Below, in pieces: positions 3,299 through 24,093 of a DNA stretch of 24,660 nucleotides (the first letter of the stretch is position 1; each line of letters starts with the position of its first letter). The notes under the pieces are model-generated. The model saw nothing but the letters and a program-made list of their open reading frames with translations. It was not told the DNA's origin and searched no databases. A program made the translations under genes and the position numbers. The stretch lies in UHGV virus genome UHGV-2140017; one strand, written 5' to 3'. This DNA is from a virus.

Positions 3299-4129
3299 TT
3301 ATGCGATATTTATCAAATCAGACACATTTGTCACACGTTTAAGCTGTGAGTCGGTATAACTCTCTTCCTCAAAGCATTTTGTAACAAGACTTTCATAGAA
3401 AGGTTTCCAGCTGTATCGCCAGGTTCGTTCTGGCAGACCAGGCAGCTCAGAGAGCATACCCCTGTAAGCATTTGAAGACTTAGGACGACTATAACCGCGG
3501 CCTTCACAACGTTTACACACTTTGTAGACAGGCACTCCCTGCAGCTCTGACTCTTTACGGTCCAGGGTTTTTCCCGTACCGCCACACTGGCATCGCTTGC
3601 TGATTTTCCCGGTGCCGCCACATTTGAAGCAAAGAACATGGTCAACCTCTTCCACCTGACGTTTTACTTCAAAATCCGAAGGTGACTGCCTGAGGTCTTT
3701 TGCCCATTGCGGTAATCTCATTGTGTAGTGGCTTTTTTCCACCATTGAGGTTTTTTTTATGAAGCCTGAACCAGAACACTTCCTGCAATCTACGCTGTCA
3801 GCTGCAGACGAGGCATAGTCGTTATAAGCGAACCGAGCTATTATCAGCATACACAGAGGGAACTTCTTCCCTGCTGCTTTTCTTATTGATCTAGGCGCTT
3901 TTGATTTTGCATATTCAGCCAACCAACTGACGGATGCCTTTCTGTCGTGTTCGCTGATTCCAGCTTTACCCAAAAACATTGACAGGCCTATTCCTGCCTC
4001 TGCCTGGGTCATCCCCAGTGCGGCCATTACATCTGTCACAGTGAGTTGCTCGCTGGCGGTTGCACGACCGCTATCGGAAATATGCATTCCTTTGGGCGCG
4101 AAAAATTTGGGAATTGATTCAATATTCAT
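3299..4129 (-). CDS. Q: Lambda-type antitermination protein Q (late gene regulator)
   Basis: Colinear with lambda Q from memory: N-terminal SDSGRATASEQLTVTDVMAALGM, central FAYNDYASSAADSVDCRKCSGSG, C-terminal CKRCEGRGYSRPKSSNAYR and PERTWRYSWKPFYESLVTKCFEEES. Start at ATG 4129 (MNIES) has GGAG upstream; the ORF-track start at 4147 is GTG. Confidence 0.85.
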   Translation of the reverse strand: MNIESIPKFFAPKGMHISDSGRATASEQLTVTDVMAALGMTQAEAGIGLSMFLGKAGISEHDRKASVSWLAEYAKSKAPRSIRKAAGKKFPLCMLIIARFAYNDYASSAADSVDCRKCSGSGFIKKTSMVEKSHYTMRLPQWAKDLRQSPSDFEVKRQVEEVDHVLCFKCGGTGKISKRCQCGGTGKTLDRKESELQGVPVYKVCKRCEGRGYSRPKSSNAYRGMLSELPGLPERTWRYSWKPFYESLVTKCFEEESYTDSQLKRVTNVSDLINIA

Positions 4130-4147
4130 GCTCAGTACTCCATACAC

Positions 4148-10640: not shown

Positions 10641-11086
10641 AAGTCACCTCCGCAGTAATTTCCGGCCAGATAGCATGACCCGGCAGAATCATTCATGTTT
10701 CTGGCGTTTCGAACAGAAGCATTCTTAAGACGCAGGTATCGCTCTCTTGCTTTAACCGTACAGTTGCTGTCACAAAGTTGCTGCCATACCGTCGCCGCAC
10801 GGCGGTAATAGCGTTTCTCTTCCAGCTTTTTGGCTGTCGCTTCAAGGGCAAGAATCTCCCCCGAAAGCCCACCAGGCAGGTACTCTTCAATATCGATGGA
10901 TCCCGCAACGAAGTAGATAAACCCACCAGTAACTTCAACGCTGGCAAGTTCCCCGTCGTAGTACAGGCGATGAACAGCGCTCTTCACTGTTACCGGTTTG
11001 GTTTCAGGAAATGCCGCAGTTATATCGCGCAGCATTTTGCCTGGATTCTTCTCAATAAATTCAAAGATCGACTTGGCTATGTTCAT
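10628..11086 (-). CDS. Putative ANR/PerC-family regulator-like protein
   Basis: C-terminal KLEEKRYYRRAATVWQQLCD resembles the RRAA-x-x-W core I recall for PerC/ANR proteins; N-terminal half looks like a winged helix. ATG overlaps the upstream stop. Confidence 0.4.
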   Translation of the reverse strand: MNIAKSIFEFIEKNPGKMLRDITAAFPETKPVTVKSAVHRLYYDGELASVEVTGGFIYFVAGSIDIEEYLPGGLSGEILALEATAKKLEEKRYYRRAATVWQQLCDSNCTVKARERYLRLKNASVRNARNMNDSAGSCYLAGNYCGGDLCSD

Positions 11087-11994
11087 CCCCGGAACCCCCG
11101 TGGAATCGTGGTTTGTACTGGACTAATTGAATTAACATCCCGCGGTCTGGTTTTGTCCCACGACTCCCTTGGCGGGCGGCCTTTAGCATCCCAACGGATA
11201 GCGCTTTGCAGATATCCCTCGAATTTTTTAGGGCCAAAAAGTGTCTCGGGGCGCATGTACTGGTATTGCTCGTCGTTGCCATGCCAGTGCTCATGCTTGA
11301 CGTCAATTACCAGTTTCAAGTCGCTAACGGTATGGCCTTCGCGGAGGCGGGCGCGAATGTTCTCCAGCGAGGTCTTAGATTTCTGGTAACGGGAACCGCT
11401 GACCAGATTCAGGTGTGCCAGAACTTCGATCGCGTTATCGGTAATAACAACTTCAGGATCCGGCTTATCTTCGGGTTCCGCAGGAGCCCGACAAGAAGGT
11501 TTTTTAGATGACGGATCTAATGACGGATCTAATGACGGATCGCCTTCAACCATTGAGGGGTCCTCCCGCAATATTTGAGGGGGTACAGACCCATTATTTG
11601 AGGCATCAGAATTTGACCCCTCAAATTTTGAACCCTCAAATTCTGAGGCATCAAATTTTGATTGTTCACGTGGCGTTGCGTAGAAGATTTTTGCTTCAGC
11701 TGCTGCACGTTCAAGCATGTCCACATTGAGTTTATAAACGTTCGAATTATTCTTTCCGCCCACGCGCCGTTCCTGCTTCTTCAGCCAGCCTTTAGCCTGA
11801 AGCTTTTTGATAGCGCTGCGGACAGTATTCTCGCTCTTGGCGCCGATCTGTCGCTGAATAGTGGTTACCGCTGGCCATGACACACCTTCGTCATTACTGA
11901 AATCTGCCAGGCGAGCCATGACCGCTATTTCTGAGATTATCAGCCCTTTGAAAGCGCATGCTTCCCATACGAGGCCGTGTAATTTACTGCTCAT
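11083..11994 (-). CDS. Phage replication initiator (O-like: N-terminal HTH, low-complexity linker, conserved phage C-terminal domain)
   Basis: N-terminal winged-helix region (ISEIAVMARLADFSNDEGVSWPAVTTIQRQIGAKSENTVRSAIKKLQAKGWL), linker encoded by the iteron DNA (DPSLDPSLDPSS), C-terminal domain typical of phage replication proteins. Position matches lambda O. Confidence 0.65.
   Translation of the reverse strand: MSSKLHGLVWEACAFKGLIISEIAVMARLADFSNDEGVSWPAVTTIQRQIGAKSENTVRSAIKKLQAKGWLKKQERRVGGKNNSNVYKLNVDMLERAAAEAKIFYATPREQSKFDASEFEGSKFEGSNSDASNNGSVPPQILREDPSMVEGDPSLDPSLDPSSKKPSCRAPAEPEDKPDPEVVITDNAIEVLAHLNLVSGSRYQKSKTSLENIRARLREGHTVSDLKLVIDVKHEHWHGNDEQYQYMRPETLFGPKKFEGYLQSAIRWDAKGRPPRESWDKTRPRDVNSISPVQTTIPRGFRG
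11508..11661. repeat. Iteron-like repeat array inside the replication initiator gene (candidate phage origin)
   Basis: Three tandem 12-bp units ATGACGGATCTA/ATGACGGATCTA/ATGACGGATCGC, then several direct and inverted copies of TTTGAGG/CCTCAAATT and two copies of GAGGCATCA(G)AATTTTGA in an AT-rich stretch. Confidence 0.55.
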
Positions 11995-12887: not shown

Positions 12888-12915
12888 GGCTTACCCCCTA
12901 CCTCTGTGGTTTCTG

Positions 12916-13146
12916 TTACACCCCTGAAGCGCTATCGTTCTCATTAGCACCCTCGCCATAGAGCAACCAATGAGGATCGCAATGCAGGGCTGAAGACAAT
13001 TCAATGATGTAACGGGGCCTCTTTGTTAAACCCGCCTCGATCGCTTGTAATGACTGCTGGGTCATTCCGACCAATTCAGCCAATTGCGCTTGTGAGAGAT
13101 TCATCTCTTCACGTTTATTCTTTAATCTTTGAGAAATTGATCCCAT
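12916..13146 (-). CDS. cro: Cro-like HTH (XRE-family) repressor
   Basis: 76 aa with LSQAQLAELVGMTQQSLQAIEAG helix-turn-helix; divergent from cI across the operator region; GGAGG RBS. Confidence 0.8.
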   Translation of the reverse strand: MGSISQRLKNKREEMNLSQAQLAELVGMTQQSLQAIEAGLTKRPRYIIELSSALHCDPHWLLYGEGANENDSASGV

Positions 13147-13155
13147 AACACCTCC

Positions 13156-13214: not shown

Positions 13215-13243
13215 GACCATGAGGCCATGGGAATGGAGGAGCT

Positions 13244-13876: not shown

Positions 13877-13891
13877 ATCCTTCCTCACATG

Positions 13892-13914
13892 AACCGGCCG
13901 GCGCCGGTTTTTTT
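13892..13914 (+). terminator. Intrinsic terminator immediately downstream of cI
   Basis: AACCGGC-CGGC-GCCGGTT hairpin (7 bp) followed by a 7-T run. Confidence 0.7.
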
Positions 13915-13976
13915 ACGTCTTTAGTTTCATAAAAAACAATAAATTACAGTTTTTTTAGTATAGTTCATCACTCAAT

Positions 13977-14019
13977 ACAGTTTTGACTGTTGACTCATTA
14001 ACAGTTTTATCTGTATTAT
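13977..14019 (+). promoter_or_regulatory. OL-type operators overlapping a PL-like promoter directed into the 14123 gene
   Basis: ACAGTTTTGACTGT (13977-13990) and ACAGTTTTATCTGT (14001-14014, identical to the first OR site), overlapping duplicated TTGACT -35 hexamers and a TATTAT -10 candidate (~14014-14019). Confidence 0.65.
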
Positions 14020-14122
14020 TAATCCATCAACAGCGAATAGGCAGGACGCCCACGAAGTAGCCGCCCGGGGCATATGAAGACCGGGATGATTCGCTAACAG
14101 ATAAACCAAATAGGAACAGATC

Positions 14123-14356
14123 ATGGCGAGCAAAGGCATTGAAAACCTTATCAAGGACGCACTAGCAAACGGCTGTCATGTAGTCCGTAAAGCGCATCGC
14201 TTCGAGGTAAGCAAGAAAGGCCAAAAATCAATCACTCTTATTATTTGTGAAGATGGCACAGCTTACCGCGGGGATATTGATCTGACGATAGCCATAGCTA
14301 TTCGCACTCAGAAAGAAATGCGCAGCATCCTCGGCCTGCCGGCCAAGGCAAGTTAA
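14123..14356 (+). CDS. Hypothetical 77-aa protein, first gene of the PL-side transcript (lambda N position, not N-like)
   Basis: ATG with AGGAA RBS ~6 nt upstream. Mildly basic, no arginine-rich motif; no family recognised. Confidence 0.5.
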   Translation: MASKGIENLIKDALANGCHVVRKAHRFEVSKKGQKSITLIICEDGTAYRGDIDLTIAIAIRTQKEMRSILGLPAKAS

Positions 14357-14532
14357 TGACCACAGGTATCTTCGGGAGGGGTTGCGGGGCTGGATTGACC
14401 ACCAGCAACAGAAACTCACCCGACACACAGCAGCCGTTTAGCCCACGGCGTCGGGGGTCCAGTATTCCTGGATTAATACTGTAGGGGTTGAGCCGGTTGG
14501 TCGCCGGCGCCCCGCCCGAAGATACTTGATGC

Positions 14533-14558
14533 AACAAAAAAGCGCCCCATAGGACGCT
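14533..14558 (-). terminator. Intrinsic terminator (minus strand) downstream of the 156-aa gene
   Basis: Minus-strand hairpin AAGCGTCC-TATG-GGGCGCTT (8 bp with one G-U) followed by TTTTTTGTTG, ~30 nt after the stop at 14590. Confidence 0.55.
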
Positions 14559-14589
14559 TCGCTCTTTAACAATCTGGATATCTTTAACA

Positions 14590-15060
14590 TCAGTAACTGG
14601 CTGGAGGTGCAGAGTCTGTATCAAACACATTCTGACAGGAGGGACATCTGCTTTGATTGAAACTCGCATACATACTCACCTGTTGAGGTTGCAGTATGGA
14701 TACTTTATTTGCAGCAAAACAATGTGGACAAAGATGCACGGTTATTTCCGTATCACCCACAATCTGCTTCTTGGAATACACCAGAGAACCAGAATCAAAC
14801 TTATTCAGAACATAGCCTTCGGTTTGGCTTTTGAAGTCTTCAAACTCTGCAATTTTTGCTTTGAGAAGCATTACCTTCTCGTCACGAGAACGGATGGCAT
14901 CACCAAGAGAGAAACATTCAGCTTGGAGGGTGATTAGTTTGTTCTGAAGCTCAATAGTTGCAGCTTTAACTTCAGCATCAGTTTTCGCGTCATTAATGAC
15001 TTTTGCAAGACCCGCAGTCTCCTTTATCGCGGTCATAGCCGCGGATAGTTCAGCTATCAC
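14590..15060 (-). CDS. Hypothetical coiled-coil protein with C-terminal zinc-ribbon, convergent with the PL transcript
   Basis: N-terminal ~90 aa amphipathic coiled coil (KLITLQAECFSLGDAIRSRDEKVMLLKAKIAEFEDFK); C-terminal CPHC-x28-CPSC pairs. Own terminator. Start ambiguous (GTG at 15060 or ATG at 15036). Confidence 0.55.
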   Translation of the reverse strand: MIAELSAAMTAIKETAGLAKVINDAKTDAEVKAATIELQNKLITLQAECFSLGDAIRSRDEKVMLLKAKIAEFEDFKSQTEGYVLNKFDSGSLVYSKKQIVGDTEITVHLCPHCFAANKVSILQPQQVSMYASFNQSRCPSCQNVFDTDSAPPASY

Positions 15061-15893
15061 TATGAATACTCATCATGTTGTTGGGGATATCCAGATTAAC
15101 CGAATCCTTGTTGTTGGGGAATAACCAGGATCCACCTCGCCTGATGTGGGTAAAAGCAGGCACACAACATGAAAGCGCATTCCATCTTCCATCGGTCGTG
15201 GGGACTGGTTTGTAACTGAAGGAGTGCGCTTCCAGTTGTGAACGGCAATATTCGCAACCGTTGTATGGCACATGCAGCGTTAGCGGCCTGAGAGTTCCCT
15301 TGATCCATGCGCTCTCAGAACAACCGGAAATGTGCAAGCTAAGTGTTTCAGGCACGACGTGCGCCCCACCAGCGCGGCGAAAAGGTGTGACGCCCGGGAA
15401 GAGTCCGGGACACAACGATGAGGGCATTGACGAGCAAGGCACAGAGTCTGGTTCGATTCCAGACGCCAGGATAGTTCTATATCTGGTGATGGGCAGGGAA
15501 AAGGTCCGTTCGATTCGGGCACCGGCAGTGCTCTCTTCGTTGTGGTAATTGCGGCTATGCGCACGTGGCGAGCCAACCCGTTCATGGAATGCGTTTCCGG
15601 GCAGTGTACGTCGCCGGTTATGGCTTAACCCGGCAGGTGGAGGCACCACCGCCACAACCTAGTTAACTGTGCTGTGTGTAGTCTTGGCGGTTATCCGTTT
15701 TCCACTATCCAAAGGAGGAAGAGGATAACGTTCTGATGGATAACCGCCCTTTTTACACAATACACAAGAGCATCACCGGGCGACGGGCTCATTACCCAAT
15801 CCACCCGGGCGGCGTCCTAACCGCAGGTGCTCTTCTGTGTTGTGTACGGAGAAATTCCCGGCGGTGGCAGCCGCCTTTCGAGAGGGTAAAACC
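15061..15893. other. ORF-poor, GC-rich, hairpin- and repeat-dense segment (candidate structured ncRNA or long regulatory leader)
   Basis: Only overlapping R/P/S-rich ORFs in all six frames. Contains a tRNA T-arm-like element with a GGTTCGATTCC loop (~15447-15463), an 11-bp perfect inverted repeat followed by T5, several GC hairpins and imperfect direct repeats. Coordinates +/-2 nt. Confidence 0.3.
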
Positions 15894-16265
15894 ATGAGTA
15901 ATGATCGCATGACAGTCGTGCCTGATTTCCTGGGCGAACTGGACGCCGGCGTATTCATGAACAAGATTGCGGCGGCTCTTAATACCACCGCACTCGGCGT
16001 TCTGAATAACGGCAACAAAGGCAAGGTAGTCCTCACCTTTGATTTTGAGCGTATGGGCAACTCTGTTGAAGAGAAGCGCGTCAAGATTAAGCACAAGCTG
16101 AACTACAGCACCCCTACTCCCCGCGGCAAAGCGTCGGAAGAGGACACCACCGAAACACCAATGTGGGTTAACAAAGGCGGCAAGCTCACTATCCTGCAGG
16201 AGGATCAGGGGCAACTCTTCGGTATCACCGGCACGGTGGACGGAAAGCTTAAAGCGGCTCAGTGA
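15894..16265 (+). CDS. Hypothetical protein (123 aa), first gene of the plus-strand operon
   Basis: ATG (MSNDRMTVVPD...) with GAGAGGG RBS; the ORF-track start at 15837 is GTG. Sits immediately upstream of YfdQ/YfdR-like genes. Confidence 0.55.
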   Translation: MSNDRMTVVPDFLGELDAGVFMNKIAAALNTTALGVLNNGNKGKVVLTFDFERMGNSVEEKRVKIKHKLNYSTPTPRGKASEEDTTETPMWVNKGGKLTILQEDQGQLFGITGTVDGKLKAAQ

Positions 16266-16321
16266 TCCGCCCGCACAAATTCACTGATACCACTTCGCTA
16301 ATCAGTTAATAAGGAATTTTT

Positions 16322-17149
16322 ATGTCTCAGTTAGACAGCGGTACTTTTCAGCAAGTCAAAGACCTGGTGCTTTCCGGTTATCACCTGAACGATATCCCCG
16401 GCCTGGCCTGCCCAACCGCCCTGTTACCTCAAAATACAAGCGTTGAAAGCCTGGAGCGTTTTGCTTTTGAGCGCTTTCGTTTCCGTGGCGCCATGGACAC
16501 AACCAGCATTGATGATTTCGTTCGCTATTCTGTCGCCTATGCCCAGGAAGAAGAAAAAGCACGTTGCTTTATTGATGCCGATAACATGCTGGCTCGTTCT
16601 ATCTTCAATATCGGCACGTTGGACAACCCAGGCCACGCTGATAACGTCGCCTCGATCAAGCTTAAGAAGACAGCGCCCTTCCGCGCGTTACTGTCGATCA
16701 ACGGCGATCACCTTAATCAGAAGAAAATCGCCGAATGGCTCGAAGACTGGAGCGACTATCTCACTGCGTTCGATGCTGACGGACAGACAATGAAAATTGC
16801 ACAGGCAGCGCAGGCGGTTCGCCGTGTCACTATCCAGCAAACTAATGCCGCCGATCATGAAGACGGTGATTTCAGCGGCAAAAAATCGCTGATGCAAAGT
16901 ATCGAAGCCAGCAGTAAAGATGTTATGCCGGTCGCGTTTGAGTTTAAGTGTGTACCCTATGAAGGCCTGGGCGAACGTCGTTTCAGTCTGCGCAACAGTC
17001 TGCTGAAAAGTAGCGACCCGGTTTTCGTTCTGCGTATTGTCCAACTGGAGGCCCAGGAAGAAGCGATCGCCAATGAGTTCCGTGATCTGCTGGTTGGCAA
17101 GTTCGACGGCAAGCCGGTAGAAACCTTTATCGGCAACTTCAAAGCCTGA
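16322..17149 (+). CDS. YfdQ-like prophage protein (DUF2303 family, tentative)
   Basis: 275-aa ORF directly upstream of a YfdR-like HD-domain gene, matching the CPS-53 yfdQ-yfdR order and size as I recall them. Call is by synteny and length only. Confidence 0.45.
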   Translation: MSQLDSGTFQQVKDLVLSGYHLNDIPGLACPTALLPQNTSVESLERFAFERFRFRGAMDTTSIDDFVRYSVAYAQEEEKARCFIDADNMLARSIFNIGTLDNPGHADNVASIKLKKTAPFRALLSINGDHLNQKKIAEWLEDWSDYLTAFDADGQTMKIAQAAQAVRRVTIQQTNAADHEDGDFSGKKSLMQSIEASSKDVMPVAFEFKCVPYEGLGERRFSLRNSLLKSSDPVFVLRIVQLEAQEEAIANEFRDLLVGKFDGKPVETFIGNFKA

Positions 17150-17281
17150 TTGCTCTCCATTAAATCCCCGTCGTTGCGGGGATTTATTAAAGCGTAATCC
17201 TGCAATTAATCGCCACCTGGCGAGGGATTCCTACACCCAAAAATCAGCGCTGTGCAGAGCGCAATTAAATGGAGAAATACG

Positions 17282-17809
17282 ATGAGCTTTATACAAACGT
17301 TCACAGGCAAGCACTTTAACTATCTCGCTATCCAGCTGGATGCCATTGAGATCGAAGATATCGCTAACGCGCTCTCGAATATTTGCCGCTTTGCTGGCCA
17401 TCTTCCGGAGTTCTACAGCGTCGGTCAGCACAGCGTGTTAACCAGCCACCTGGTACCACAGGAGTTTGCACTTCAAGCACTGCTGCACGATGCCGCAGAG
17501 GCTTATTTGCAGGATATTCCAGCACCGCTTAAACGCCTGCTCCCGGACTACCGCGCCATTGAGGATCGGGTTGATGCTGCTATCCGTCAAAAATTTGGCC
17601 TTCCATCTGAGCAGCACCCGACCGTGAAGTATGCCGACCTTGTGATGCTGGCCAGCGAACGTCGCGACTTTGAAATCGACGACGGCACCCACTGGCCGAT
17701 GCTCGAAGGCATTATTCCCACCGACCAATTTGTGATTAATCCCGTCCGCCCTGGTCAATCTTACGGCATGTTCATGAACCGCTTTAACCAACTGATGGAG
17801 CGGCGCTAA
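17282..17809 (+). CDS. HD-domain phosphohydrolase, YfdR-like (putative 5'-deoxynucleotidase)
   Basis: HD-domain residues in SNICRFAGH and ALLHDAAEAY; overall colinear with E. coli YfdR from memory. ATG 17282 (MSFIQTF) preceded by GGAG. Confidence 0.7.
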   Translation: MSFIQTFTGKHFNYLAIQLDAIEIEDIANALSNICRFAGHLPEFYSVGQHSVLTSHLVPQEFALQALLHDAAEAYLQDIPAPLKRLLPDYRAIEDRVDAAIRQKFGLPSEQHPTVKYADLVMLASERRDFEIDDGTHWPMLEGIIPTDQFVINPVRPGQSYGMFMNRFNQLMERR

Positions 17810-18009
17810 TGCCACACGTGAAAGTGAAAGAATTGGTTGCTGCAGCGTACGCTACGGCACCTGACCTACCACCAGCAGCAGCCCAATTAATGCAAGACAT
17901 AGCGTCAAGGCTGGATGTGACCTTTGTCGCCCTTACAGAGGCAATGGACCAGAACACCGCTATGGCCGCGATGATAGCGAACCTGAGCGAGGAAAACAGA
18001 AATGGCTAA
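17809..18009 (+). CDS. Hypothetical small protein (66 aa)
   Basis: ATG overlaps the upstream stop (TAATG); its stop overlaps the ParB-like start. No family recognised. Confidence 0.4.
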   Translation: MPHVKVKELVAAAYATAPDLPPAAAQLMQDIASRLDVTFVALTEAMDQNTAMAAMIANLSEENRNG

Positions 18010-18787
18010 AAACTCGATCGATGCTTATGGCGCCAGCGGCAAGACAAACGTTCTGATGTTCGAGCCGGAAAATCTGCATATTGTCACTGACAGGGCTCAC
18101 CCGCTTTACGATGAACGTATTCACTTACCTCTCAGTGAAGCCATGGTGCTGAACATCATAGACCAGGGTGTTCCGGAGCCGATTATTGTCTGGAAAGACC
18201 CGGAAACTGGATACTCCTGCGTGGTTGATGGCCGTCAGCGTGTCCGTCATACCCTGGAGGCTAACAGACGCCTGGCCAAAGAGGGTAAAACTCCGCTGCT
18301 GGTTCCGGCTGTCACTAAACGCGGTTCTGCTGTTCGCATGGCACAGGCAATGGTCAGCGCAAACGAAATCCGCCAGGCCGACACACCGCTGGGCAGGGCC
18401 AAAAAGATGGCTGATGCGCTGGAGCGCGGGCATGACGAGGAAGACCTCGCGCTGATGTTCGGCGTCAGTGTCCCCACTGTACGCGCTACGCTATCCCTTC
18501 TGGATGCCACTCAGGCAGTCAAAGACGCGGTAGAGTCCGGCGCAGTGACCGTTACCCAGGCACGGCAACTGGCATCACTGAAACCCGAAGAACAGCGGGA
18601 AAAGGTAGCCGAAGTCGAAGCGGCGACCGCTGGCACTACCGGTCATGAAAAAGCGCGTCGTCAGCGCCAGGTCCTCGGCGATAAGAAACCGCGCCTTAAA
18701 ACTCGCAAAGAAATCACAAAAGCCCTCGAAGCTGCCAACGGTGAATACGCTGATGCTCTGCGCTGGGTACTCGGGGAGGCTGTATGA
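18002..18787 (+). CDS. ParB-like N-terminal (ParB/Srx) domain protein with HTH
   Basis: PIIVWKDPETGYSCVVDGRQRVRHTLEA fits the ParB N-terminal motif; LALMFGVSVPTVRATLSLL looks like an HTH. GAGGAAAA RBS. Confidence 0.6.
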   Translation: MAKNSIDAYGASGKTNVLMFEPENLHIVTDRAHPLYDERIHLPLSEAMVLNIIDQGVPEPIIVWKDPETGYSCVVDGRQRVRHTLEANRRLAKEGKTPLLVPAVTKRGSAVRMAQAMVSANEIRQADTPLGRAKKMADALERGHDEEDLALMFGVSVPTVRATLSLLDATQAVKDAVESGAVTVTQARQLASLKPEEQREKVAEVEAATAGTTGHEKARRQRQVLGDKKPRLKTRKEITKALEAANGEYADALRWVLGEAV

Positions 18788-19191
18788 GCAACGACGGATT
18801 AACACTTAACCAACTGGCAGAGCGTAACGCAGTATTGGTCGCTGAGGTCGAGAAATTACGTGCTGAGCGTGATCAGCTGGCTGCGGAGAATGCGGGGCTG
18901 AAGCAGTTAATCGCCGAGAACTGGAATATGCGTGACCTGCTTCGTCAGTTAATGGCTGGACGCCCGGGCGGGGTATATTTCAACAAATGGGAGAAGCTAA
19001 TCATTGGGGTGCTGAACGAAACCCACGCAACCGATCGCATCGTAGCCGGGATTAAGGCTGATGGGGTGGAGGAGTTCGTATCCAACACCGTGCATAAGAT
19101 TTTTGATGAAAGCGAAGTAGTGTCAGCTTTGGCTTACCTTTCCCTGGCTAATTCACACGTGAAGCAGCTGCGCGAGGGGAACGACAAATGA
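18784..19191 (+). CDS. Hypothetical protein (135 aa) with N-terminal coiled coil
   Basis: ATGA overlap with the upstream stop; N-terminal LNQLAERNAVLVAEVEKLRAERDQLAAENAGLKQLIAE heptad pattern. Confidence 0.45.
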   Translation: MSNDGLTLNQLAERNAVLVAEVEKLRAERDQLAAENAGLKQLIAENWNMRDLLRQLMAGRPGGVYFNKWEKLIIGVLNETHATDRIVAGIKADGVEEFVSNTVHKIFDESEVVSALAYLSLANSHVKQLREGNDK

Positions 19192-19379
19192 GCAAACTAA
19201 ACACGAAGCAACTCGAGATTCTTTCAGTAATAGCTTCCGGTGAGCGTCCCTACGCAACCTGGCGGCAATCACTCAAAGCGCTACAGAGAAGGGGGCTGAT
19301 TACCCTCACTAGCTGCGGATACTCAATTACGACAGCAGGTTTGTCAGCGCTAAAGCAGGAGGTGCCGCATGACAACTGA
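19188..19379 (+). CDS. Hypothetical small protein (63 aa)
   Basis: ATGA overlap with the upstream stop; part of a translationally coupled chain. No family recognised. Confidence 0.4.
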   Translation: MSKLNTKQLEILSVIASGERPYATWRQSLKALQRRGLITLTSCGYSITTAGLSALKQEVPHDN

Positions 19380-19878
19380 TATCACCGAACTTGCGCAGCG
19401 CAACGAACTGCTGATTGCAAACGGGCAGCAGACAGCCGACCTGCTACGCCACCTGGCAGATAACGAAATTGATTCTGACTATTTTGCCGTTGTGTCGGAG
19501 TGCGAAAGCTACGGGAAAGAAACTGACGCTGAGTTATCGATCACGGAGTTTGCCCTCCGTGCCGCTGGCTATGTTGATGCGCTGGTAGAGGCACTGGAGA
19601 AGGCGCAGGCAGGCGAGAAGCAATGGCGCGAAGTTGTCGATGCGTTCTGCACTGATGACGCCGACTGGCACAATCTGACTAACTCAAACAATGAGCTGAT
19701 TGCTCTTTTGTCTCAGGCCTTGTGCAAGCAAGCAGACCGCATCGCCGAGCTGAAGTCCCGCACTGTGAAGTTGCCGCGCCCTGGGTTCATCACCATCTCA
19801 GGTGAGCGCATGGCCGTTTATTTGAAAGGTGATGTTGATGCAGCAATGTTGGCTGCAGGCATTGAGGAGGCTGAGTAG
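19369..19878 (+). CDS. Hypothetical protein (169 aa)
   Basis: ATG start overlapping the upstream gene by 11 nt; acidic, helical. No family recognised. Confidence 0.45.
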   Translation: MTTDITELAQRNELLIANGQQTADLLRHLADNEIDSDYFAVVSECESYGKETDAELSITEFALRAAGYVDALVEALEKAQAGEKQWREVVDAFCTDDADWHNLTNSNNELIALLSQALCKQADRIAELKSRTVKLPRPGFITISGERMAVYLKGDVDAAMLAAGIEEAE

Positions 19879-20211
19879 ATGGATAAGCCACTTAACAAGC
19901 GCGAACGCGAATATATCAAACCGGCTGTCATTTATGACTGGGAAATTCATCTTTGGCCAGGCCGCAAAGATGGTGTCTGGGATGGCGATAAGATACTGCC
20001 AGTAAAGGTTGGTGCTATGGCTGAATCACTGATTAAAAGGGGATATCTGGAGAGGCTTGGGAGTGTAATTCGTGCCACCGAAAAGACGAAGGCGCTGAAG
20101 TGCCGCGCAGGTAACTGTTTATATGGTCGCCTTTATGACGATAACGATGTTGATTCGGGGAAGTGCCCTGATTGCGATGGCGGCATGATGTTTGAAGGAG
20201 CCAACCAATGA
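19879..20211 (+). CDS. Hypothetical protein (110 aa) with C-terminal zinc-ribbon
   Basis: Starts right after the upstream stop; C-terminal CRAGNC-x16-CPDC cysteine pairs. Confidence 0.45.
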   Translation: MDKPLNKREREYIKPAVIYDWEIHLWPGRKDGVWDGDKILPVKVGAMAESLIKRGYLERLGSVIRATEKTKALKCRAGNCLYGRLYDDNDVDSGKCPDCDGGMMFEGANQ

Positions 20212-20777
20212 CAAATAATCAGTTAACCAGAGAACGGCTGGAAAAAATTAAATCATGGCGTGAAACCTACGGTGCTGGAAGCAACGTAATGCTGCCAGCG
20301 GAAGAGGCTGAGGAACTGGCCCGCATGGCGCCGGCCGCAATGGACAGCGAGCCAGTTGAGATGCCTCTCGACTACCTGCAGGGGCACAAAGACGGTCTGG
20401 AGTGGGCCGCCCAACTGGCAGAGTCCAATCACCCTCAGACCGGAGACTGGCTTTACGATGACCCTATCGAGCTGGCAAAAGCTATTCGCAAAGGTCCAGA
20501 TATGCCGCCAGCGCAGCCGGTAGCGGACAGCGAGCCGGTGGCGTGGCTTCTGTCAGGCGGTGGCGCTAAAAACGTGGTGTGCTTTGATAGTGGCAATGCA
20601 TATGCAGACCCATTGCGTGAGGTGACGCCGCTCTATCGCCACGCACAGCCAGCGCCGGTAGTGCCAGATGAAATAAAGCACCGCATCGGTGGATTGGATT
20701 GGGGATGGGAAGGCGAGTTTAATCGCGGCTGGAACGCCTGCCGCGCCGCCATGCTCAACGGAGGTAACGATGAGTAA
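20208..20777 (+). CDS. Hypothetical protein (189 aa), possibly Ead/Ea22-like
   Basis: ATGA overlap with the upstream stop. Repeated EPV-x-W segments recall Ea22-like early-region proteins; weak memory-based call. Confidence 0.35.
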   Translation: MTNNQLTRERLEKIKSWRETYGAGSNVMLPAEEAEELARMAPAAMDSEPVEMPLDYLQGHKDGLEWAAQLAESNHPQTGDWLYDDPIELAKAIRKGPDMPPAQPVADSEPVAWLLSGGGAKNVVCFDSGNAYADPLREVTPLYRHAQPAPVVPDEIKHRIGGLDWGWEGEFNRGWNACRAAMLNGGNDE

Positions 20778-21285
20778 TTTTAACGGATTTACTGGCAACA
20801 ATGACCCTGTTTACTACTCACGCAAAACCGAAAAAGCAGATGGTGCCCTCACTGGTGAGGATACCAAGCAGGCCGGCAACTCTCCGGTAATTCCAGAGGG
20901 TTACGTGATGGTGCCGAAGGAGCCCACAAAAGAGATGATTGATGCCGGGTGGCTGCACTTCATGGGCACCAAGAACCCTTCATCAAAAGTCACATACAAA
21001 GCCATGCTCGCAGCCGCCCCGCATGACACCCCCGCTCTCAACTCGCTACAGAGCGTCGATAGCGTTGCTGGTAAATGGATTCCGGTAAGCGAGCGGATGC
21101 CGGAGGATGAGCAGGAGGTGCTCACCATAAACAGAATGGGGCATTGCTTTGTATCATTCTTCGATAAGCACTCAGGGCTGTTTTTCGACAGGATTGATGC
21201 GCCAGCAGCATGCTGCATAGAGCACGTGCTGGTAACCCACTGGATGCCGCTGCCAGCCGCACCGCAGGAGGTGCAAGGTGATTAG
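20770..21285 (+). CDS. DUF551-domain phage protein
   Basis: C-terminal KWIPVSERMPEDEQEVLTI...VTHWMPLPAAP fits the DUF551 signature; N-terminal VMVPKEPTKEMIDAG is common in this class. ATG 20770 preceded by GGAGGT. Confidence 0.6.
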   Translation: MSNFNGFTGNNDPVYYSRKTEKADGALTGEDTKQAGNSPVIPEGYVMVPKEPTKEMIDAGWLHFMGTKNPSSKVTYKAMLAAAPHDTPALNSLQSVDSVAGKWIPVSERMPEDEQEVLTINRMGHCFVSFFDKHSGLFFDRIDAPAACCIEHVLVTHWMPLPAAPQEVQGD

Positions 21286-21420
21286 TATATTGTTCTTCCT
21301 TGATGACGAATTGTTTTACTGGATATTCATCAGTGGGGTGGGTTCATCTGGCTTATTCATCGGTGAGGTTGGCGATGCCTAAATCCCCCGCAGAACGTAA
21401 AGCCTCCAGTTGAAATCAAA

Positions 21421-21444
21421 CCCCTCTCCTGAGGGGTTTTCTCG
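21421..21444 (+). terminator. Intrinsic terminator upstream of ninB (tR2-like position)
   Basis: CCCCTC-TCCT-GAGGGG hairpin followed by TTTTCTCG; the reverse complement also ends in a T-rich tract, so possibly bidirectional. Confidence 0.55.
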
Positions 21445-21631
21445 TATATGCTCATTTTGCTTTTATCCCCGGGAAGGGCGATAATTACCTGGTCAGTCTG
21501 GGCAACTGACGACTTTACCCCGGCGCCAAGTGGGGACACATGGCGCACAAAACCTTAAAGCAATACCTGTCACCGATGGCGAAAGTCACCGGCGATTTTC
21601 TGCATTCTGCGGTTTCCGTTAAGGAGGCCGT

Positions 21632-22087
21632 ATGACTCTTCCAGTAGACGGCATCAAACTCCATCGCGGCAACTTCGCGGCCATCGGCCAGCAGATTCAA
21701 CCATTGCTGGATGCCGGGCAATGTTTCCGCTTGCAGATTAAGCCATGGCGCGAGAAGCGCAGCCTGTCGCAGAACGCCCTCAGCCACATGTGGTACACGG
21801 AAATCAGCGAATACCTGATTAACTCCGGGCGTACCGACGCAACCCCTGAGTGGGTTAAGCGCAACCTCAAAAAGACCTATCTCGGCTGCGAAGAGGTGAC
21901 CTACACCGACTTCATTACCGGTGAGAAGACCACCACCTGGGAGCCTCGCCACACTGCCGACCTTGATACCGGGGAAATGCACATTTTTCTGGTGAAGGTT
22001 GAAATGTGGTGCGCCCAGTTTGGCCTGGCCCTGACTATCCCAAGCGGTTGCGAGTACCAGCAACTGCGCGATAAGCAGGAGGCGTGA
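21632..22087 (+). CDS. ninB: NinB recombination protein (Orf family)
   Basis: KRSLSQNALSHMWYTEIS aligns with lambda NinB (NRSLDQNRKLWACLGDVS); AAGGAGG RBS; followed by ninE/ninG homologues. Confidence 0.8.
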   Translation: MTLPVDGIKLHRGNFAAIGQQIQPLLDAGQCFRLQIKPWREKRSLSQNALSHMWYTEISEYLINSGRTDATPEWVKRNLKKTYLGCEEVTYTDFITGEKTTTWEPRHTADLDTGEMHIFLVKVEMWCAQFGLALTIPSGCEYQQLRDKQEA

Positions 22088-22257
22088 TGAGCTGCCTTCT
22101 CGCAAAAGTCGTTGAGCGCGGCATCTTCCGCATTCCTGCTCGCCGCAAGCGCAAAGCCGAAGTTAAACCTTCCGACATCCCGACCCTGAAAGGCTATACG
22201 GCCCGTCTGGTCGACAAGAAGTGGCTTTGCCTGAGAGCAAGGAGGCAACATGCTTAA
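22087..22257 (+). CDS. ninE: NinE-like small protein (56 aa), absent from the ORF track
   Basis: MSCLLAKVVERGIFRIPARRKRKAEVKPSDIPTLKGYTARLVDKKWLCLRARRQHA; C-terminal half resembles lambda NinE (...[20 protein letters not shown]). TGATG overlap with ninB stop; 8-nt overlap with ninG. Confidence 0.5.
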   Translation: MSCLLAKVVERGIFRIPARRKRKAEVKPSDIPTLKGYTARLVDKKWLCLRARRQHA

Positions 22258-23267: not shown

Positions 23268-23404
23268 GCCGTGACGTTATCGAACGCATCCGCGACCGCT
23301 GGATAAAGCTTCGCCTTTTACGCAGCAGCGGCACCGTACTGGTTGACTACCGCATCCTCAAGAATTTCGTTCGCATCTATCAGACCCTGGGAGAGAAAGC
23401 ATGA
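23264..23404 (+). CDS. Hypothetical 46-aa protein, absent from the ORF track
   Basis: MSRDVIERIRDRWIKLRLLRSSGTVLVDYRILKNFVRIYQTLGEKA; ATGA overlaps at both ends link it into the ninG-to-Q2 chain. Confidence 0.35.
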   Translation: MSRDVIERIRDRWIKLRLLRSSGTVLVDYRILKNFVRIYQTLGEKA

Positions 23405-24093
23405 TTAACACTCAATACCTCCAGTATGTTCGCCAGCAGCTGATAGTGGCCACCGCCGATCTGAGCGGCGCGACGAAAGGGCAACTGGTAGCCTTTGCTG
23501 AGAATGCTCAATTCGCGGCGACGGCGCGCAGCCGGGGAAGGAAGAAAGTAGCCGATCCGGTCACCGGGCGCATGGTAAACCCATCAAACCCGCCAATCCC
23601 CGGACAGCAGTCCCGCGCGAAAGGTTCCGCAATCGCCCTCGTTATGCCCGTTGAGTACTCGACAGCCAGCTGGCGCCGCGCGCTGCTGTCGCTGGAAGAG
23701 CATCAGAAAGCGTGGCTGCTCTGGAACTACAGCGACAATATCCGCTGGGAGAACCAGGAGACGATCACCCGGTGGGCATGGGAGCAATTCAAAGAAAAGC
23801 TGGCCGGTGTGCGCATTGCAAAGAAAACAGTCGATCGCCTGCGTCAGCTTATCTGGCTGGCGGCGCAGGATGTGAAAGCCGAGCTGGCAGGCCGGGAGAC
23901 TTATGAATACCAAAAGCTTGCTTCTGTGGTCGGCGTGACCCCGAAGAACTGGTCAGAAACGTTTACGGAGCGGTGGGAGGAGATGAAAAGGACCTTGCTG
24001 AGCCTTGATAGCGATTCTCTTTTGCAGGTTACGCGATCACGTTCACAACAAAAGGCGACAAATTTAGACTCAAGTCTTGCAAAACTGGATTAA
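23401..24093 (+). CDS. Putative Q-like late antiterminator (QuuQ-type by position and size), cysteine-free
   Basis: 230-aa W-rich protein in the Q position: after ninB-ninE-ninG, directly upstream of a promoter-like element and a hairpin+T6 terminator. No cysteines, so not a lambda/82/21-type zinc-finger Q. Possible C-terminal HTH (QKLASVVGVTPKNWSETF). Confidence 0.4.
   Translation: MINTQYLQYVRQQLIVATADLSGATKGQLVAFAENAQFAATARSRGRKKVADPVTGRMVNPSNPPIPGQQSRAKGSAIALVMPVEYSTASWRRALLSLEEHQKAWLLWNYSDNIRWENQETITRWAWEQFKEKLAGVRIAKKTVDRLRQLIWLAAQDVKAELAGRETYEYQKLASVVGVTPKNWSETFTERWEEMKRTLLSLDSDSLLQVTRSRSQQKATNLDSSLAKLD

What the first reader, a model, noticed from the sequence alone, without database searches (positions are those of the whole stretch)
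21286..21631. Strong terminator and 345-bp non-coding gap separating DUF551-type genes from ninB: candidate module junction
An operon of tightly coupled early-type genes ends at 21285, then a CCCCTC/GAGGGG hairpin with U-tract precedes ninB. The position resembles lambda tR2, but here it also marks where PL-type gene content switches to PR-type content, so it may be the recombination seam of the mosaic. A 31-codon ORF whose stop overlaps the ninB ATG lies in the gap.
Basis: partly seen in the sequence, partly recalled or inferred. Interest (0 to 1): 0.35.

Follow-up and report, generated by a model that had tools for sequence, protein, structure and literature searches.

The report
Terminator and conserved nin leader cassette
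The gap before ninB is not empty: it holds a lambda-tR2-like terminator, then a widely shared promoter-like element, a folded leader RNA and a 31-codon coupling ORF (the counterpart of E. coli ylcH / phage 82 orf33); phages swap neighbouring genes around this unit, but this prophage's real PL-to-PR fusion point lies about 1 kb upstream.

Summary
The DUF551 gene ends at 21285. A 9-bp hairpin with a U-tract sits at 21418-21442 (-15 kcal/mol, z -3.8). A 31-codon ORF (21540-21635) overlaps the ninB ATG.

The gap is not inert. Positions 21365-21614 are about 95% identical in Klebsiella phages whose ninB is about 81% identical. I recovered the core in 236 loci: Klebsiella, Raoultella, Enterobacter, E. 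coli K-12 DLP12, phages 82, HK225 and phi80. The core has four parts:
- TTGNNN-17 nt-NATAAT, kept across 19 unrelated spacer families.
- A stem-loop with covarying stems and a constant loop, YCUGRRCAA.
- A hairpin with the Shine-Dalgarno sequence in its loop and the AUG in its stem.
- The ylcH-like ORF. Its frame and stop/start overlap are conserved, but its peptide evolves neutrally.

Four alternative downstream modules use the same ATG, and dozens of different genes lie upstream. The site is therefore a generic mosaic junction.

The window's own PL-to-PR crossover is elsewhere, at 20312-20356. The window is 100% identical to icd-integrated prophages up to that point, and in those prophages the operon ends in xis-int.

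GenBank X92588 (phage 82, 1996) already marks the same hexamers, inverted repeat and orf33 as putative. Promoter activity is unproven. Verdict: an ordinary, poorly characterised regulatory unit of modest interest.

The parts
20312..20356 (+). Actual PL-type to lambdoid (PR-type) crossover zone. It lies inside ORF 20208..20777, in a conserved motif coding for ...LARMA.AAMDSEP.
   Evidence: The window is 100.0% identical to L266/L269 over 11809-20356 and unrelated after that. Lambdoid loci match from about 20300-20317 onward. In L266/L269 the operon continues to Exc, integrase and host icd.
20689..21285 (+). DUF551-domain gene, the last large gene before the gap.
   Evidence: Pfam PF04448, 7e-13. 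L122 carries the same gene at 99.8% identity, joined directly to window position 21365.
21273..21364 (.). 92-nt filler that is absent from L122. Function unexplained. It contains the doubtful 34-codon ORF starting at 21278.
   Evidence: Alignment A2. Partial homologues (21303 onward) occur in L097, L084 and L051 behind other genes, and in L097 the + frame is broken. There is no fold signal (z = 0.09 on + and -0.04 on -).
21375..21413 (+). 12-codon remnant ORF, MPKSPAERKASS*. Its ATG overlaps the conserved upstream stop (GATGCCTAA).
   Evidence: It equals the 5' end of a full-length Eaa1-type gene (L005:1006-1035). It is found in 51 loci as 31 distinct sequences. Variable columns by codon position are 9:7:6, so there is no sign of selection on the peptide.
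21418..21442 (+). Intrinsic terminator in the tR2 position. It is symmetrical enough that it could also act on leftward transcripts.
   Evidence: -15.0 kcal/mol, z -3.8; minus strand -16.3 kcal/mol, z -4.4. A strict hairpin-plus-T-tail terminator precedes the cassette in only 57 of 187 distinct upstream regions (48 of them this CCCCTC/GAGGGG type) and is absent when holE abuts the cassette.
21457..21485 (+). Sigma-70 promoter-like element: -35 TTGCTT (21457-21462), a 17-nt spacer containing the near-palindrome TATCCCCGGGAAGGGCGATA, and -10 GATAAT (21480-21485).
   Evidence: Of 200 sequences selected only by downstream features, 183 carry TTGNNN-N17-NATAAT, and 182 of those have exactly 17 nt. 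There are 19 unrelated spacer families. The same hexamers are annotated as putative -35/-10 in phage 82, X92588. Activity was not shown.
21492..21510 (+). HP1: stem GUCAG/CUGAC with the conserved 9-nt loop UCUGGGCAA (family consensus YCUGRRCAA). It begins 6 nt after the -10 element.
   Evidence: There are at least 5 stem types with a constant loop. The inner helix is 94% paired, with 6 of 7 pairs changed on both sides. Among non-Watson-Crick cells G.U outnumbers A.C by about 20:5, which favours + strand RNA. X92588 annotates it as 'possible regulator-binding site'.
21523..21546 (+). HP2: hairpin with GGGA of the Shine-Dalgarno sequence (GGGGA, 21532-21536) in the loop, and the start codon (21540-21542) plus the next 4 nt in the 3' arm.
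   Evidence: There are at least 6 inner-stem types with a constant loop (88% paired, 6 pairs with double changes). It explains why unrelated genes share ATG GCG CA. phi80 annotates it only as IR4.
21540..21635 (+). 31-codon leader ORF, homologous to E. coli K-12 ylcH (b4588), phage 82 orf33 and HK225_060. Its stop overlaps the ninB start (ATGA).
   Evidence: There are 127 distinct sequences and 107 distinct peptides. Lengths are 31-34 codons in all but one sequence (40 codons). 126 of 127 end in ATGA or GTGA. There is no codon-position bias, and nonsynonymous to synonymous changes run at about 4:1.
21569..21596 (+). HP-Y: internal hairpin of the leader ORF (GUC.CCG.UGGC-GAAA-GUCA.CGG.GAU).
   Evidence: RNAalifold consensus with 3 covarying pairs, for example CCG/CGG changing to CAG/CUG. 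That change alters two amino acids at once but keeps the pairing. The fold of 21560-21640 has z -3.45.
21606..21635 (+). HP3: hairpin that sequesters the ninB Shine-Dalgarno sequence (GGAGG, 21623-21627) and part of its start region.
   Evidence: Two independent solutions exist in the family, UUCC-GUUAA-GGAG and CCUC-N4-GAGG, with variable loops.
21632..22087 (+). ninB (YbcN/Orf-family recombination mediator), the first large gene of the nin-Q segment.
   Evidence: NCBIfam PRK09741, 4.9e-72. PHROG 72, 1.4e-46.

Best explanation
The gap is a stack of three small functional modules that heads the nin-Q segment of lambdoid phages.

(a) Terminator module. A remnant 12-codon ORF is followed by an intrinsic terminator. 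It closes the upstream accessory-gene block at the position of lambda tR2.

(b) Promoter-like element. A sigma-70-type element (TTGCTT-17-GATAAT) is followed at once by a structured leader. HP1 is a stem-loop with an invariant 9-nt loop. HP2 displays the Shine-Dalgarno sequence in its loop but locks the AUG and the first codons in its stem.

(c) Coupling ORF. In ninB-type cassettes a 31-34-codon ORF (ylcH/orf33) starts at that AUG. It runs through a further hairpin and stops on the ninB start codon. The ninB Shine-Dalgarno sequence is itself buried in a hairpin.

Inferred working. Ribosomes can start only when HP2 opens. By translating the leader ORF they unfold HP3 and hand over to ninB by termination-reinitiation. 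nin expression, and through translation-dependent protection from Rho possibly Q expression, is therefore gated at HP2. The promoter-like element would let the unit start transcription by itself.

Because the roughly 110-nt core (21437-21547) is shared at over 90% identity by phages that differ on both sides, it also serves as a landing pad for homologous recombination. That makes the site a mosaic junction.

Shown: the anatomy, conservation, covariation, frame conservation, neutral peptide evolution and breakpoint clustering. Inferred: promoter activity, translational gating and coupling, and any link to Rho.
For: Conservation exceeds the flanks.
- 21365-21614 is 94.8% identical in phages where 21365-22257 overall is 84.7%. 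That puts ninB-ninE at about 81%.

Promoter-like element.
- 183 of 200 sequences picked only by loop, Shine-Dalgarno sequence and ATG carry TTGNNN-N17-NATAAT, and 182 of the 183 have exactly 17 nt.
- There are 88 distinct spacers in 19 unrelated families.
- The phage 82 depositors marked the same hexamers independently as putative -35/-10.
- In L166/L217/L242/L252 and L176 the cassette lies directly behind divergently oriented genes. For L166 and L176 the upstream ORFs give strong PHROG matches (near full-length for L166), so rightward transcription plausibly starts at the cassette there.

Structure.
- On 33 diverse leaders, 83.8% of cells are paired against 26-39% when partners are slid.
- The covariation score is 0.421 against 0.03-0.08, and 15 of 21 pairs change on both sides.
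- G.U outnumbers A.C by about 20:5.
- HP-Y covaries.
- The K-12 leader folds with z -6.6.

Leader ORF.
- 126 of 127 distinct sequences keep the frame and the ATGA/GTGA overlap despite 107 different peptides and length changes in whole codons.
- Variable columns by codon position are 23:26:26, 15:17:15 and 16:14:13. Nonsynonymous to synonymous changes are 156:39, 203:56 and 85:18.
- The ninB Shine-Dalgarno sequence is sequestered in two different ways.

Shared ATG.
- The same ATG serves DUF1367 (about 50 loci), ylcH plus YbcN-type NinB (103), ylcH plus Pfam-NinB (51) and a 75-aa membrane protein (19).

Mosaic junction.
Against: No experiment supports promoter activity.
- In E. coli K-12 Cappable-seq data (PMC4782308, additional file 1) no + strand start is called at the predicted +1 (U00096.2 571541-571543).
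- Only a weak start (score 2.86) is called at 571565, at the 3' foot of HP1.
- rusA, four genes downstream in DLP12, is reported to need a promoter supplied by an insertion for adequate expression (PMC4118853).
- The window's -35 hexamer matches the consensus at only 3 of 6 positions, and the simple promoter scan did not list the site.
- A constitutive promoter upstream of Q with no intervening terminator would be dangerous for a lysogen, so it must be weak, repressed or gated.

Other weaknesses.
- The covariation rests on a limited number of lineages: about 5-6 stem types per helix.
- The role of the invariant HP1 loop is unknown.
- The terminator is not an obligate partner. It is present in 57 of 187 distinct upstream regions.
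Confidence: 0.6

Rival explanations
1. The cassette has no promoter of its own. It is only an internal leader of the long early transcript, a translational-control or processing element between the accessory genes and nin. The conserved hexamers serve another purpose.
For: K-12 Cappable-seq shows no start at the predicted +1. rusA in DLP12 is reported to need a promoter supplied from outside. In most loci the upstream genes are co-oriented, and holE often ends only 12-23 nt before the -35 with no terminator, so read-through transcripts must cross the cassette.
Against: Exact 17-nt spacing of TTGNNN and NATAAT is kept across 19 unrelated spacer families. This is hard to explain otherwise. Cassettes also sit directly behind divergent genes. 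Variation in the outer 5' arm of HP1 is often uncompensated, as expected if transcription starts inside that arm.
Confidence: 0.25
2. HP1, and perhaps HP2, are DNA operators: palindromes bound by a dimeric regulator that represses the adjacent promoter. This is what the phage 82 record suggests ('possible regulator-binding site').
For: HP1 lies at about +1 to +20, a classic operator position. Both elements are inverted repeats. Further palindromes overlap the -35 (TTGATW-N6-WATCAA in E. coli-type spacers) or the -10 (TATCCCCG..CGGGCGATA in Klebsiella types).
Against: The arms vary while the non-palindromic centre (YCTGRRCAA) is invariant, the opposite of what a dimer's operator shows. G.T-type mismatches outnumber A.C-type by about 20:5, which is strand-specific as for RNA. 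None of the palindromes recurs elsewhere in the 24.6-kb window, including its immunity region. phi80 CI operators differ.
Confidence: 0.15
3. The 31-codon ORF encodes a functional micro-protein (YlcH family), and its conservation reflects the peptide.
For: The ORF is open in all but one of 127 distinct sequences. It is annotated in K-12 (b4588), HK225 and phage 82. A core ...LSPMAK.TGDFLHSAF... is recognisable.
Against: Variable sites are spread evenly over codon positions, and nonsynonymous to synonymous changes run at about 4:1. Paired double amino-acid changes (Q..C to P..G) preserve RNA base pairs. A variant replaces QKC by LNG yet keeps the stem. No Pfam, NCBIfam or PHROG family matches. 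DUF1367-type cassettes lack the ORF altogether.
Confidence: 0.1
4. One reading: the gap is essentially a terminator plus non-functional spacer, left by the recombination event that joined PL-type and PR-type modules.
For: A terminator is present, gene remnants occur at 21273-21413, and many homology breakpoints fall in the gap.
Against: The PL/PR crossover is at 20312-20356. The gap core is better conserved than the neighbouring genes, has covarying helices, and is found in canonical lambdoid phages with no PL/PR rearrangement.
Confidence: 0.05
5. The functional product is a leftward small RNA, antisense to the leader, that ends at the symmetrical terminator.
For: The terminator also folds well on the minus strand and is followed by UUUGAUUU. 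An RNA-seq compendium lists a rare minus-strand transcript in K-12 at 572186-572350, covering the cassette (TCONS_00004761).
Against: No conserved minus-strand promoter exists, because sequences to the right of the shared ATG differ between cassette types. G.U pairs fit only the + strand. 130 of 187 distinct upstream regions have no strict terminator.
Confidence: 0.05

Closest known systems
Phage 82 / E. coli K-12 DLP12 region upstream of orf33(ylcH)-orf151(ybcN)-...-rusA-Q (GenBank X92588, deposited with the 1996 rusA work)
   Same: Same element. It has TTGATT-17-CATAAT annotated as putative -35/-10, the 29-nt inverted repeat (= HP1) annotated as 'possible regulator-binding site', the ribosome-binding site GGGG(A), a 33-codon ORF overlapping the Orf-family gene, and a GGAGG for that gene inside a hairpin. 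The YlcH C-terminus ...LH.[9 protein letters not shown] is shared with the 32-codon Klebsiella variants.
   Different: In the window version the HP1 stem has 5 bp rather than 10. The HP2 arms differ. The hexamers are TTGCTT/GATAAT and the spacer is an unrelated palindrome. The leader ORF has the ...AVSVKEAV ending, as in HK225. A terminator and a remnant ORF lie just upstream. In the 1996 record the features are only 'putative'; no RNA-level reading or family-wide comparison is annotated there.
Lambda tR2 (ren-ninB intergenic terminator)
   Same: An intrinsic terminator placed immediately before ninB, at the entry to the nin region.
   Different: Lambda has only a 73-bp gap: tR2, then the Shine-Dalgarno sequence, then ninB. 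It has no promoter-like element, no HP1/HP2 and no leader ORF. The hairpin sequences are unrelated.
Gifsy-1 isrK-orf45-anrP leader (PMC4825925)
   Same: Works alike in principle. It is a prophage leader RNA with alternative structure in which translation of a short upstream ORF is needed to express the downstream gene, tuning an antiterminator pathway.
   Different: No sequence or structure homology, and Rfam isrK was not hit. IsrK also acts in trans as a terminated short isoform, whereas no terminator follows HP1/HP2 here. The resemblance is an analogy, not membership.
Conserved boundary ('linker') sequences and relaxed homologous recombination in lambdoid mosaicism (e.g. PMC3945230)
   Same: A short sequence shared by otherwise different phages, at which exchanges cluster. 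Both the cassette core and the 45-bp motif at 20312-20356 behave this way.
   Different: Here the shared sequence is itself a constrained regulatory element, not merely residual homology.
nut (boxA/boxB) and HK022 put antitermination RNAs
   Same: Promoter-proximal stem-loops with a sequence-specific loop. The HP1 loop core GRRCA could mimic a GNRA-like pentaloop (my reading of the sequence).
   Different: There is no boxA. The loop is 9 nt unless a 2-nt bulge is assumed. phi80, which carries this cassette, has a different annotated nutL core, CACGUAAACGUG. HK022 lacks the cassette after its helicase gene. put could not be compared directly.

Membership tests
Intrinsic (Rho-independent) terminator | G+C-rich hairpin more stable than chance | tested here: met
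   9-bp stem with 6 G-C pairs and a tetraloop; -15.0 kcal/mol against -6.4 +/- 2.3; z -3.8.
Intrinsic (Rho-independent) terminator | U-tract immediately 3' of the stem | tested here: met
   UUUUCUCGU: four consecutive U, three of them also able to extend the stem. Relatives have UUUUAUCG or UUUUUAUCG. The tract is rather short, so efficiency is uncertain.
Intrinsic (Rho-independent) terminator | Termination of transcription in vivo or in vitro | not testable with these tools
   Needs read-through assays.
Sigma-70 promoter | -35 and -10 hexamers 17 +/- 1 bp apart | tested here: met
   TTGCTT (3 of 6), 17 nt, GATAAT (5 of 6) at 21457-21485. The family consensus is TTG(A/C)(T/A)(T/A)-17-(C/G)ATAAT.
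Sigma-70 promoter | Hexamers and spacing conserved while the spacer diverges | tested here: met
   182 of 183 have a 17-nt spacing; 19 unrelated spacer families.
Sigma-70 promoter | Mapped primary transcription start 5-9 nt after the -10 | tested here: inconclusive
   K-12 Cappable-seq shows none at the predicted site and a weak start 23 nt further downstream. No data exist for Klebsiella or for induced phage.
Phage 82 orf33 / DLP12 ylcH leader cassette | Short ORF (31-34 codons) homologous to YlcH whose stop overlaps the start of an Orf-family (NinB/YbcN) gene | tested here: met
   The window peptide MAHKTLKQYLSPMAKVTGDFLHSAVSVKEAV compares with HK225_060 ...[22 protein letters not shown] and K-12 ...[22 protein letters not shown]. 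ATGA overlap is present.
Phage 82 orf33 / DLP12 ylcH leader cassette | Inverted repeat with loop YCTGRRCAA just after the -10, then a GGGGA ribosome-binding site in a second inverted repeat | tested here: met
Functional small protein (YlcH as a protein family) | Purifying selection on the amino-acid sequence (excess of synonymous, third-position change) | tested here: not met
   Even codon-position spread; nonsynonymous to synonymous changes about 4:1 in three subgroups.
nut site (boxA + boxB) | boxA upstream of a 5-bp stem with a GNRA-like pentaloop, matching the phage's own nut sites | tested here: not met
   No boxA. The loop is 9 nt. The annotated phi80 nutL core differs.
Any curated RNA family (Rfam 15) | Covariance-model match at or near the gathering score | tested here: not met
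   Only the terminator resembles the 3' hairpin of STnc100 (17.9-19.8 bits against a gathering score of 47). Nothing else turned up for the window gap or the K-12 cassette.

The most novel reading that the evidence does not exclude
The nin leader is an unrecognised, widespread structured cis-regulatory RNA of enterobacterial lambdoid phages. It comprises HP1 with its invariant YCUGRRCAA loop, HP2 with the Shine-Dalgarno sequence in the loop and the AUG in the stem, HP-Y and HP3. The invariant loop would be read by a host or phage factor to gate translation, and through Rho transcription, of nin-Q. On this reading E. coli K-12 'YlcH' is not a protein with a function but a coupling ORF.
Probability: 0.4. 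Interest if true: 0.55.

Novelty: new member of a known kind. Interest (0 to 1): 0.35.

Why it matters
The gap shows that a piece of 'intergenic spacer' at a classic lambdoid module boundary is a constrained control unit. The unit is present in over two hundred (pro)phage loci and in E. coli K-12.

If the mechanism holds, three things follow:
- It explains how nin and Q expression can be gated independently of the upstream operon.
- It reclassifies the K-12 gene ylcH as a leader ORF.
- It gives a concrete example of a regulatory element that doubles as a recombination landing pad, shaping which gene modules can be exchanged.

For this particular genome, the analysis relocates the PL/PR fusion point. 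It also reveals a composite prophage with two outward-facing Q genes, which matters for predicting whether the prophage is inducible.

Tried and rejected
- Immunity-operator idea. I searched the window for further copies of the HP2 arms, the spacer palindrome and the HP1 arms. Each is unique, with none at the cI/cro region.
- nut/boxB idea. The phi80 nutL core is unlike HP1.
- HK022 put comparison. HK022 lacks the cassette, and its RefSeq record does not annotate put, so no comparison was possible.
- Rfam, at gathering and at E <= 10, on the window gap and on the K-12 cassette. Only the terminator hairpin resembles the STnc100 3' end.
- Protein-family searches for all small ORFs in the gap (NCBIfam, PHROGs, Pfam) found nothing.
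- The 63-aa minus-strand ORF 21357..21548 crosses the terminator and the promoter-like element and has no family match. I rejected it as a gene.
- My first placement of the PL/PR seam, at 17990-18002, came from comparison with phage Kp4866-6 and lambdoid loci. It was overturned by exact relatives that stay 100% identical up to 20356. The ParB-like block is simply shared by both phage types.
- Literature on ylcH contains nothing functional.
- Start-site tables. The ROSE paper and the Romero et al. 2014 (PMC4681348) supplements hold nothing on this locus. Thomason et al. 2015 is not held.
- The filler 21283-21380 has no significant fold on either strand.
- The HP1 loop as an extended -10 for the weak K-12 start gives a poor hexamer (ACAACT). 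Rejected.
Full report
**Observation.** The window has a chain of overlapping + strand ORFs from 18002 to 21285, ending with a DUF551-domain ORF (20689..21285; Pfam PF04448, 7e-13). ninB (21632..22087) belongs to the YbcN/Orf family (NCBIfam PRK09741, 4.9e-72; PHROG 72). Between them lies the described hairpin, AAACCCCUC-UCCU-GAGGGGUUU (21418-21439), followed by UUUUCUCG. It folds at -15.0 kcal/mol, against -6.4 +/- 2.3 for shuffles (z -3.8). The 31-codon ORF 21540..21635 ends in ATGA on the ninB start.

**The gap is conserved, not spacer.** Window 21365-21614 is 94.8% identical in several Klebsiella phages in which 21365-22257 as a whole is 84.7% identical. That puts ninB-ninE at about 81%. 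Alignment A1 shows the block 21437-21551 upstream of different first genes. The window, ST11-VIM1phi8.1 and ST13-OXA48phi12.5 have the 31-codon ORF plus ninB. Mulock, ST15-VIM1phi2.1, ST101-KPC2phi6.1 and RothC have DUF1367. ST846-OXA48phi9.2 has another gene. All of them start at the same ATG (window 21540), with the same GGGGA and the same ATG GCG CA. Pattern scans of public collections gave 236 loci with the cassette, 165 of them distinct. They come from Klebsiella, Raoultella, Enterobacter and E. coli. Parts of the element match in 2393 of 5426 complete E. coli genomes.

**Promoter-like element.** The window reads TTGCTT (21457-62), a 17-nt spacer, then GATAAT (21480-85). Of 200 distinct sequences chosen only by the downstream loop, Shine-Dalgarno sequence and ATG pattern, 183 carry TTGNNN-N17-NATAAT, and 182 of those have exactly 17 nt. 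Most of the other 17 are chance hits of the loose pattern. The 88 distinct spacers fall into 19 unrelated families. That is the signature of a sigma-70 promoter. In L166/L217/L242/L252 and L176 the cassette follows divergently oriented upstream ORFs. For L166 and L176 those ORFs give strong PHROG matches, near full-length for L166.

**Evidence against a strong constitutive promoter.**
- The -35 hexamer is weak in the window, and the simple scan did not list the site.
- K-12 Cappable-seq calls no start at the predicted +1. It calls only a weak one 23 nt downstream.
- rusA in DLP12 is reported to need an inserted promoter (PMC4118853).

**Leader structure.**
- HP1 (21492-21510) has at least five stem types: GUCAG/CUGAC, GUCAYCGGAG/CUCCGGUGAC, CAUCGGAG/CUUCGAUG, CACCAGAG/CUCUGGUG, CACCGG/CCGGUG and the phi80 type. 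They surround an invariant loop, YCUGRRCAA.
- HP2 (21523-21546) has at least six inner-stem types around an invariant GGGA loop. The Shine-Dalgarno sequence is exposed, and the AUG plus the next four bases are paired. This explains why unrelated genes share their first codons.
- On 33 diverse leaders, 83.8% of cells pair, against 26-39% for slid partners. The covariation score is 0.421 against 0.03-0.08. Fifteen of 21 pairs show changes on both sides.
- Non-Watson-Crick cells are G.U rather than A.C by about 20:5, which favours an RNA on the + strand.
- No Rfam family matches.

**The 31-codon ORF.** It is the homologue of E. coli K-12 ylcH (b4588, 33 aa), phage 82 orf33 and HK225_060.
- Among 127 distinct sequences coding for 107 peptides, 126 keep the ATGA/GTGA overlap with the downstream Orf-family gene. 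Length varies by whole codons: 31-34 in all but one 40-codon outlier.
- Variable columns are spread evenly over codon positions: 23:26:26, 15:17:15 and 16:14:13. Nonsynonymous to synonymous changes run at about 4:1.
- An internal hairpin, HP-Y (21569-21596), covaries. CCG/CGG changes to CAG/CUG, which alters two residues at once. One variant swaps QKC for LNG but keeps the stem.
- The ninB Shine-Dalgarno sequence is buried in a hairpin in two independent ways.
- I conclude that translation of the ORF is selected, but its product is not.

**Terminator module and remnants.**
- The terminator is preceded by a 12-codon ORF, 21375..21413 (MPKSPAERKASS*). This is the 5' end of an Eaa1-type gene found at full length elsewhere (L005:1006). 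It shows no coding signature.
- A strict terminator-like hairpin precedes the cassette in only 57 of 187 distinct upstream regions. When a holE (theta) gene is the neighbour, that gene ends 12-23 nt before the -35 with no terminator. The terminator is therefore a separate, optional module.
- Positions 21273-21364 are a 92-nt filler. It is absent from L122, which carries the same DUF551 gene at 99.8% identity joined straight to 21365. The filler has no fold signal and remains unexplained.

**Mosaic junction.**
- Homology breakpoints of 136 loci against the window cluster at element borders. Left ends fall at 21365, 21374-6, 21437, 21481 and 21492. Right ends fall at 21547-51, 21614, 22210-57 and 22831.
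- No locus is collinear across the whole gap.
- Upstream there are 69 ORF clusters. These are mechanical ORFs, and the commonest is holE.
- Downstream there are four classes. Two follow the ylcH ORF: YbcN-type NinB and Pfam-NinB. The other two are DUF1367 and a 75-aa membrane protein.
- Together they form 95 combinations in 191 loci. The gap is a generic exchange point.

**Where the PL-to-PR switch really is.**
- The window is a composite. Its minus-strand operon runs from cro-like 12916..13146 through a cII-like gene, an O-like gene (11083..11994), methyltransferases and an HNH gene to a Q-family antiterminator at 3299..4147 (Pfam Antiterm, 3e-45). This operon is of the ST64B/Kp4866-6 type.
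- The + strand starts with a cI-like gene followed by YfdP/DUF2303-type genes. In ST64B that operon ends in xis-int.
- Exact relatives in Klebsiella chromosomes (L266, L269 and 19 similar places) are 100.0% identical to the window over 11809-20356. They then continue to excisionase, integrase and host icd.
- The window instead switches to lambdoid sequence. The switch lies inside ORF 20208..20777, within a motif shared by both parents at about 20312-20356.
- In canonical lambdoid relatives, ParB-like, Ea and DUF551 genes follow the replication genes in the PR operon and precede this cassette.
The DUF551 gene and the gap belong to the lambdoid partner.
- My earlier placement at 17990-18002 was wrong.

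**Comparison with known elements.**
- Lambda has only tR2 followed by the ninB Shine-Dalgarno sequence, in a 73-bp gap.
- Phage 82 record X92588 annotates the same TTGATT and CATAAT as putative -35/-10. It also marks HP1 as 'possible regulator-binding site', and lists orf33 and orf151. K-12 DLP12 is 95.6% identical to that record over the cassette. The element is therefore known in outline.
- phi80 marks HP2 only as IR4.
- The Gifsy-1 isrK-orf45-anrP leader is a functional analogy, not a relative.

**Mechanism and verdict.** The best-supported reading has three parts:
- an optional tR2-like terminator;
- a promoter-like element;
- a structured leader that gates initiation at a shared AUG and, in ninB-type cassettes, couples ninB to a leader ORF.

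The same conserved core serves as a recombination landing pad. The anatomy and the evolutionary constraints are shown. Promoter activity, gating and coupling are inferred. This is a Klebsiella member of a known but poorly characterised element, of modest interest. The most novel surviving reading is that the leader is an unrecognised cis-regulatory RNA family and that ylcH is a coupling ORF.

Noticed in passing
window 3299-4147 (-) and 23401-24093 (+): The window encodes two Q-type antiterminators facing outward. One is a Pfam Antiterm protein at the end of the cro/cII/O operon on the minus strand. The other is a PHROG 304 Q-like protein after ninB-ninE-ninG on the plus strand. This suggests a composite of two prophages.
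   Followed up: partly
window 20312-20356; loci L266, L269 (8500-11200): The window is 100.0% identical to icd-integrated Klebsiella prophages up to 20356. Their operon goes on to Exc, integrase and host icd, whereas the window continues with lambdoid DUF551-cassette-nin-Q. The crossover lies in a 45-bp motif shared by both gene families.
   Followed up: yes
L268 (GCA_902161885.1), 8226-12201: Another genome carries the same prophage (100% identical over window 11809-20034) joined at a different point to DinI, Rem, NinG and Dam. Hybrids between this icd prophage and lambdoid nin regions have therefore arisen more than once.
   Followed up: no
window 1-129 (-): Rfam STnc100 (53.6 bits, gathering score 47) lies at the window edge, cut at its 3' end. 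It sits downstream of the minus-strand late-regulatory region. The consensus of its 3' terminator hairpin resembles the gap terminator, which explains a weak second hit at 21408-21449.
   Followed up: partly
window 21273-21364: A 92-nt insert is flanked by GAGGT repeats. It is absent from L122 but about 85% conserved (from 21303) behind other genes in L097, L084 and L051. By my own reading of the sequence it contains a 14-codon minus-strand ORF (MNKPDEPTPLMNIQ*) that also stays open in L097. It has no fold signal.
   Followed up: partly
promoter spacers: window 21464-21483; L136 1005-1027; L140 about 885-905: Spacers carry palindromes that overlap the hexamers. Klebsiella types have TATCCCCG..CGGGCGATA or CGGGATTTAGCCCG. 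E. coli types have TTGATW-N6-WATCAA, which includes the -35. These are possible operator sites; no binding partner was identified.
   Followed up: partly
E. coli K-12 U00096.3 572186-572350 (-), equal to L136 about 907-1071: An RNA-seq compendium lists a rare minus-strand transcript (TCONS_00004761) covering the cassette and the 3' end of ybcM.
   Followed up: no
HP2 of HK225/phi80/CobraSix-type cassettes (e.g. L140 954-977): The arms ATTTAAG-GGGA-CTTAAAT resemble, from my memory, the half-sites of P22 c2 repressor operators. I did not test this and it may be coincidence.
   Followed up: no
loci such as L068; class DN3: A 75-76-aa hydrophobic protein (MAHKVKNIRIKDLYAITLLIVMIV...) is a fourth alternative first gene at the shared ATG, in 19 loci. 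It has no Pfam family.
   Followed up: no
HK225-type leaders, e.g. L008 about 1505-1540: In E. coli-type leaders, AUGCAGAAA can pair with UUUCUGCAU downstream (9 bp). That pairing would be an alternative to the local hairpin HP-Y and hints at a switch. It is weak in the Klebsiella versions (my own reading of the sequences).
   Followed up: no
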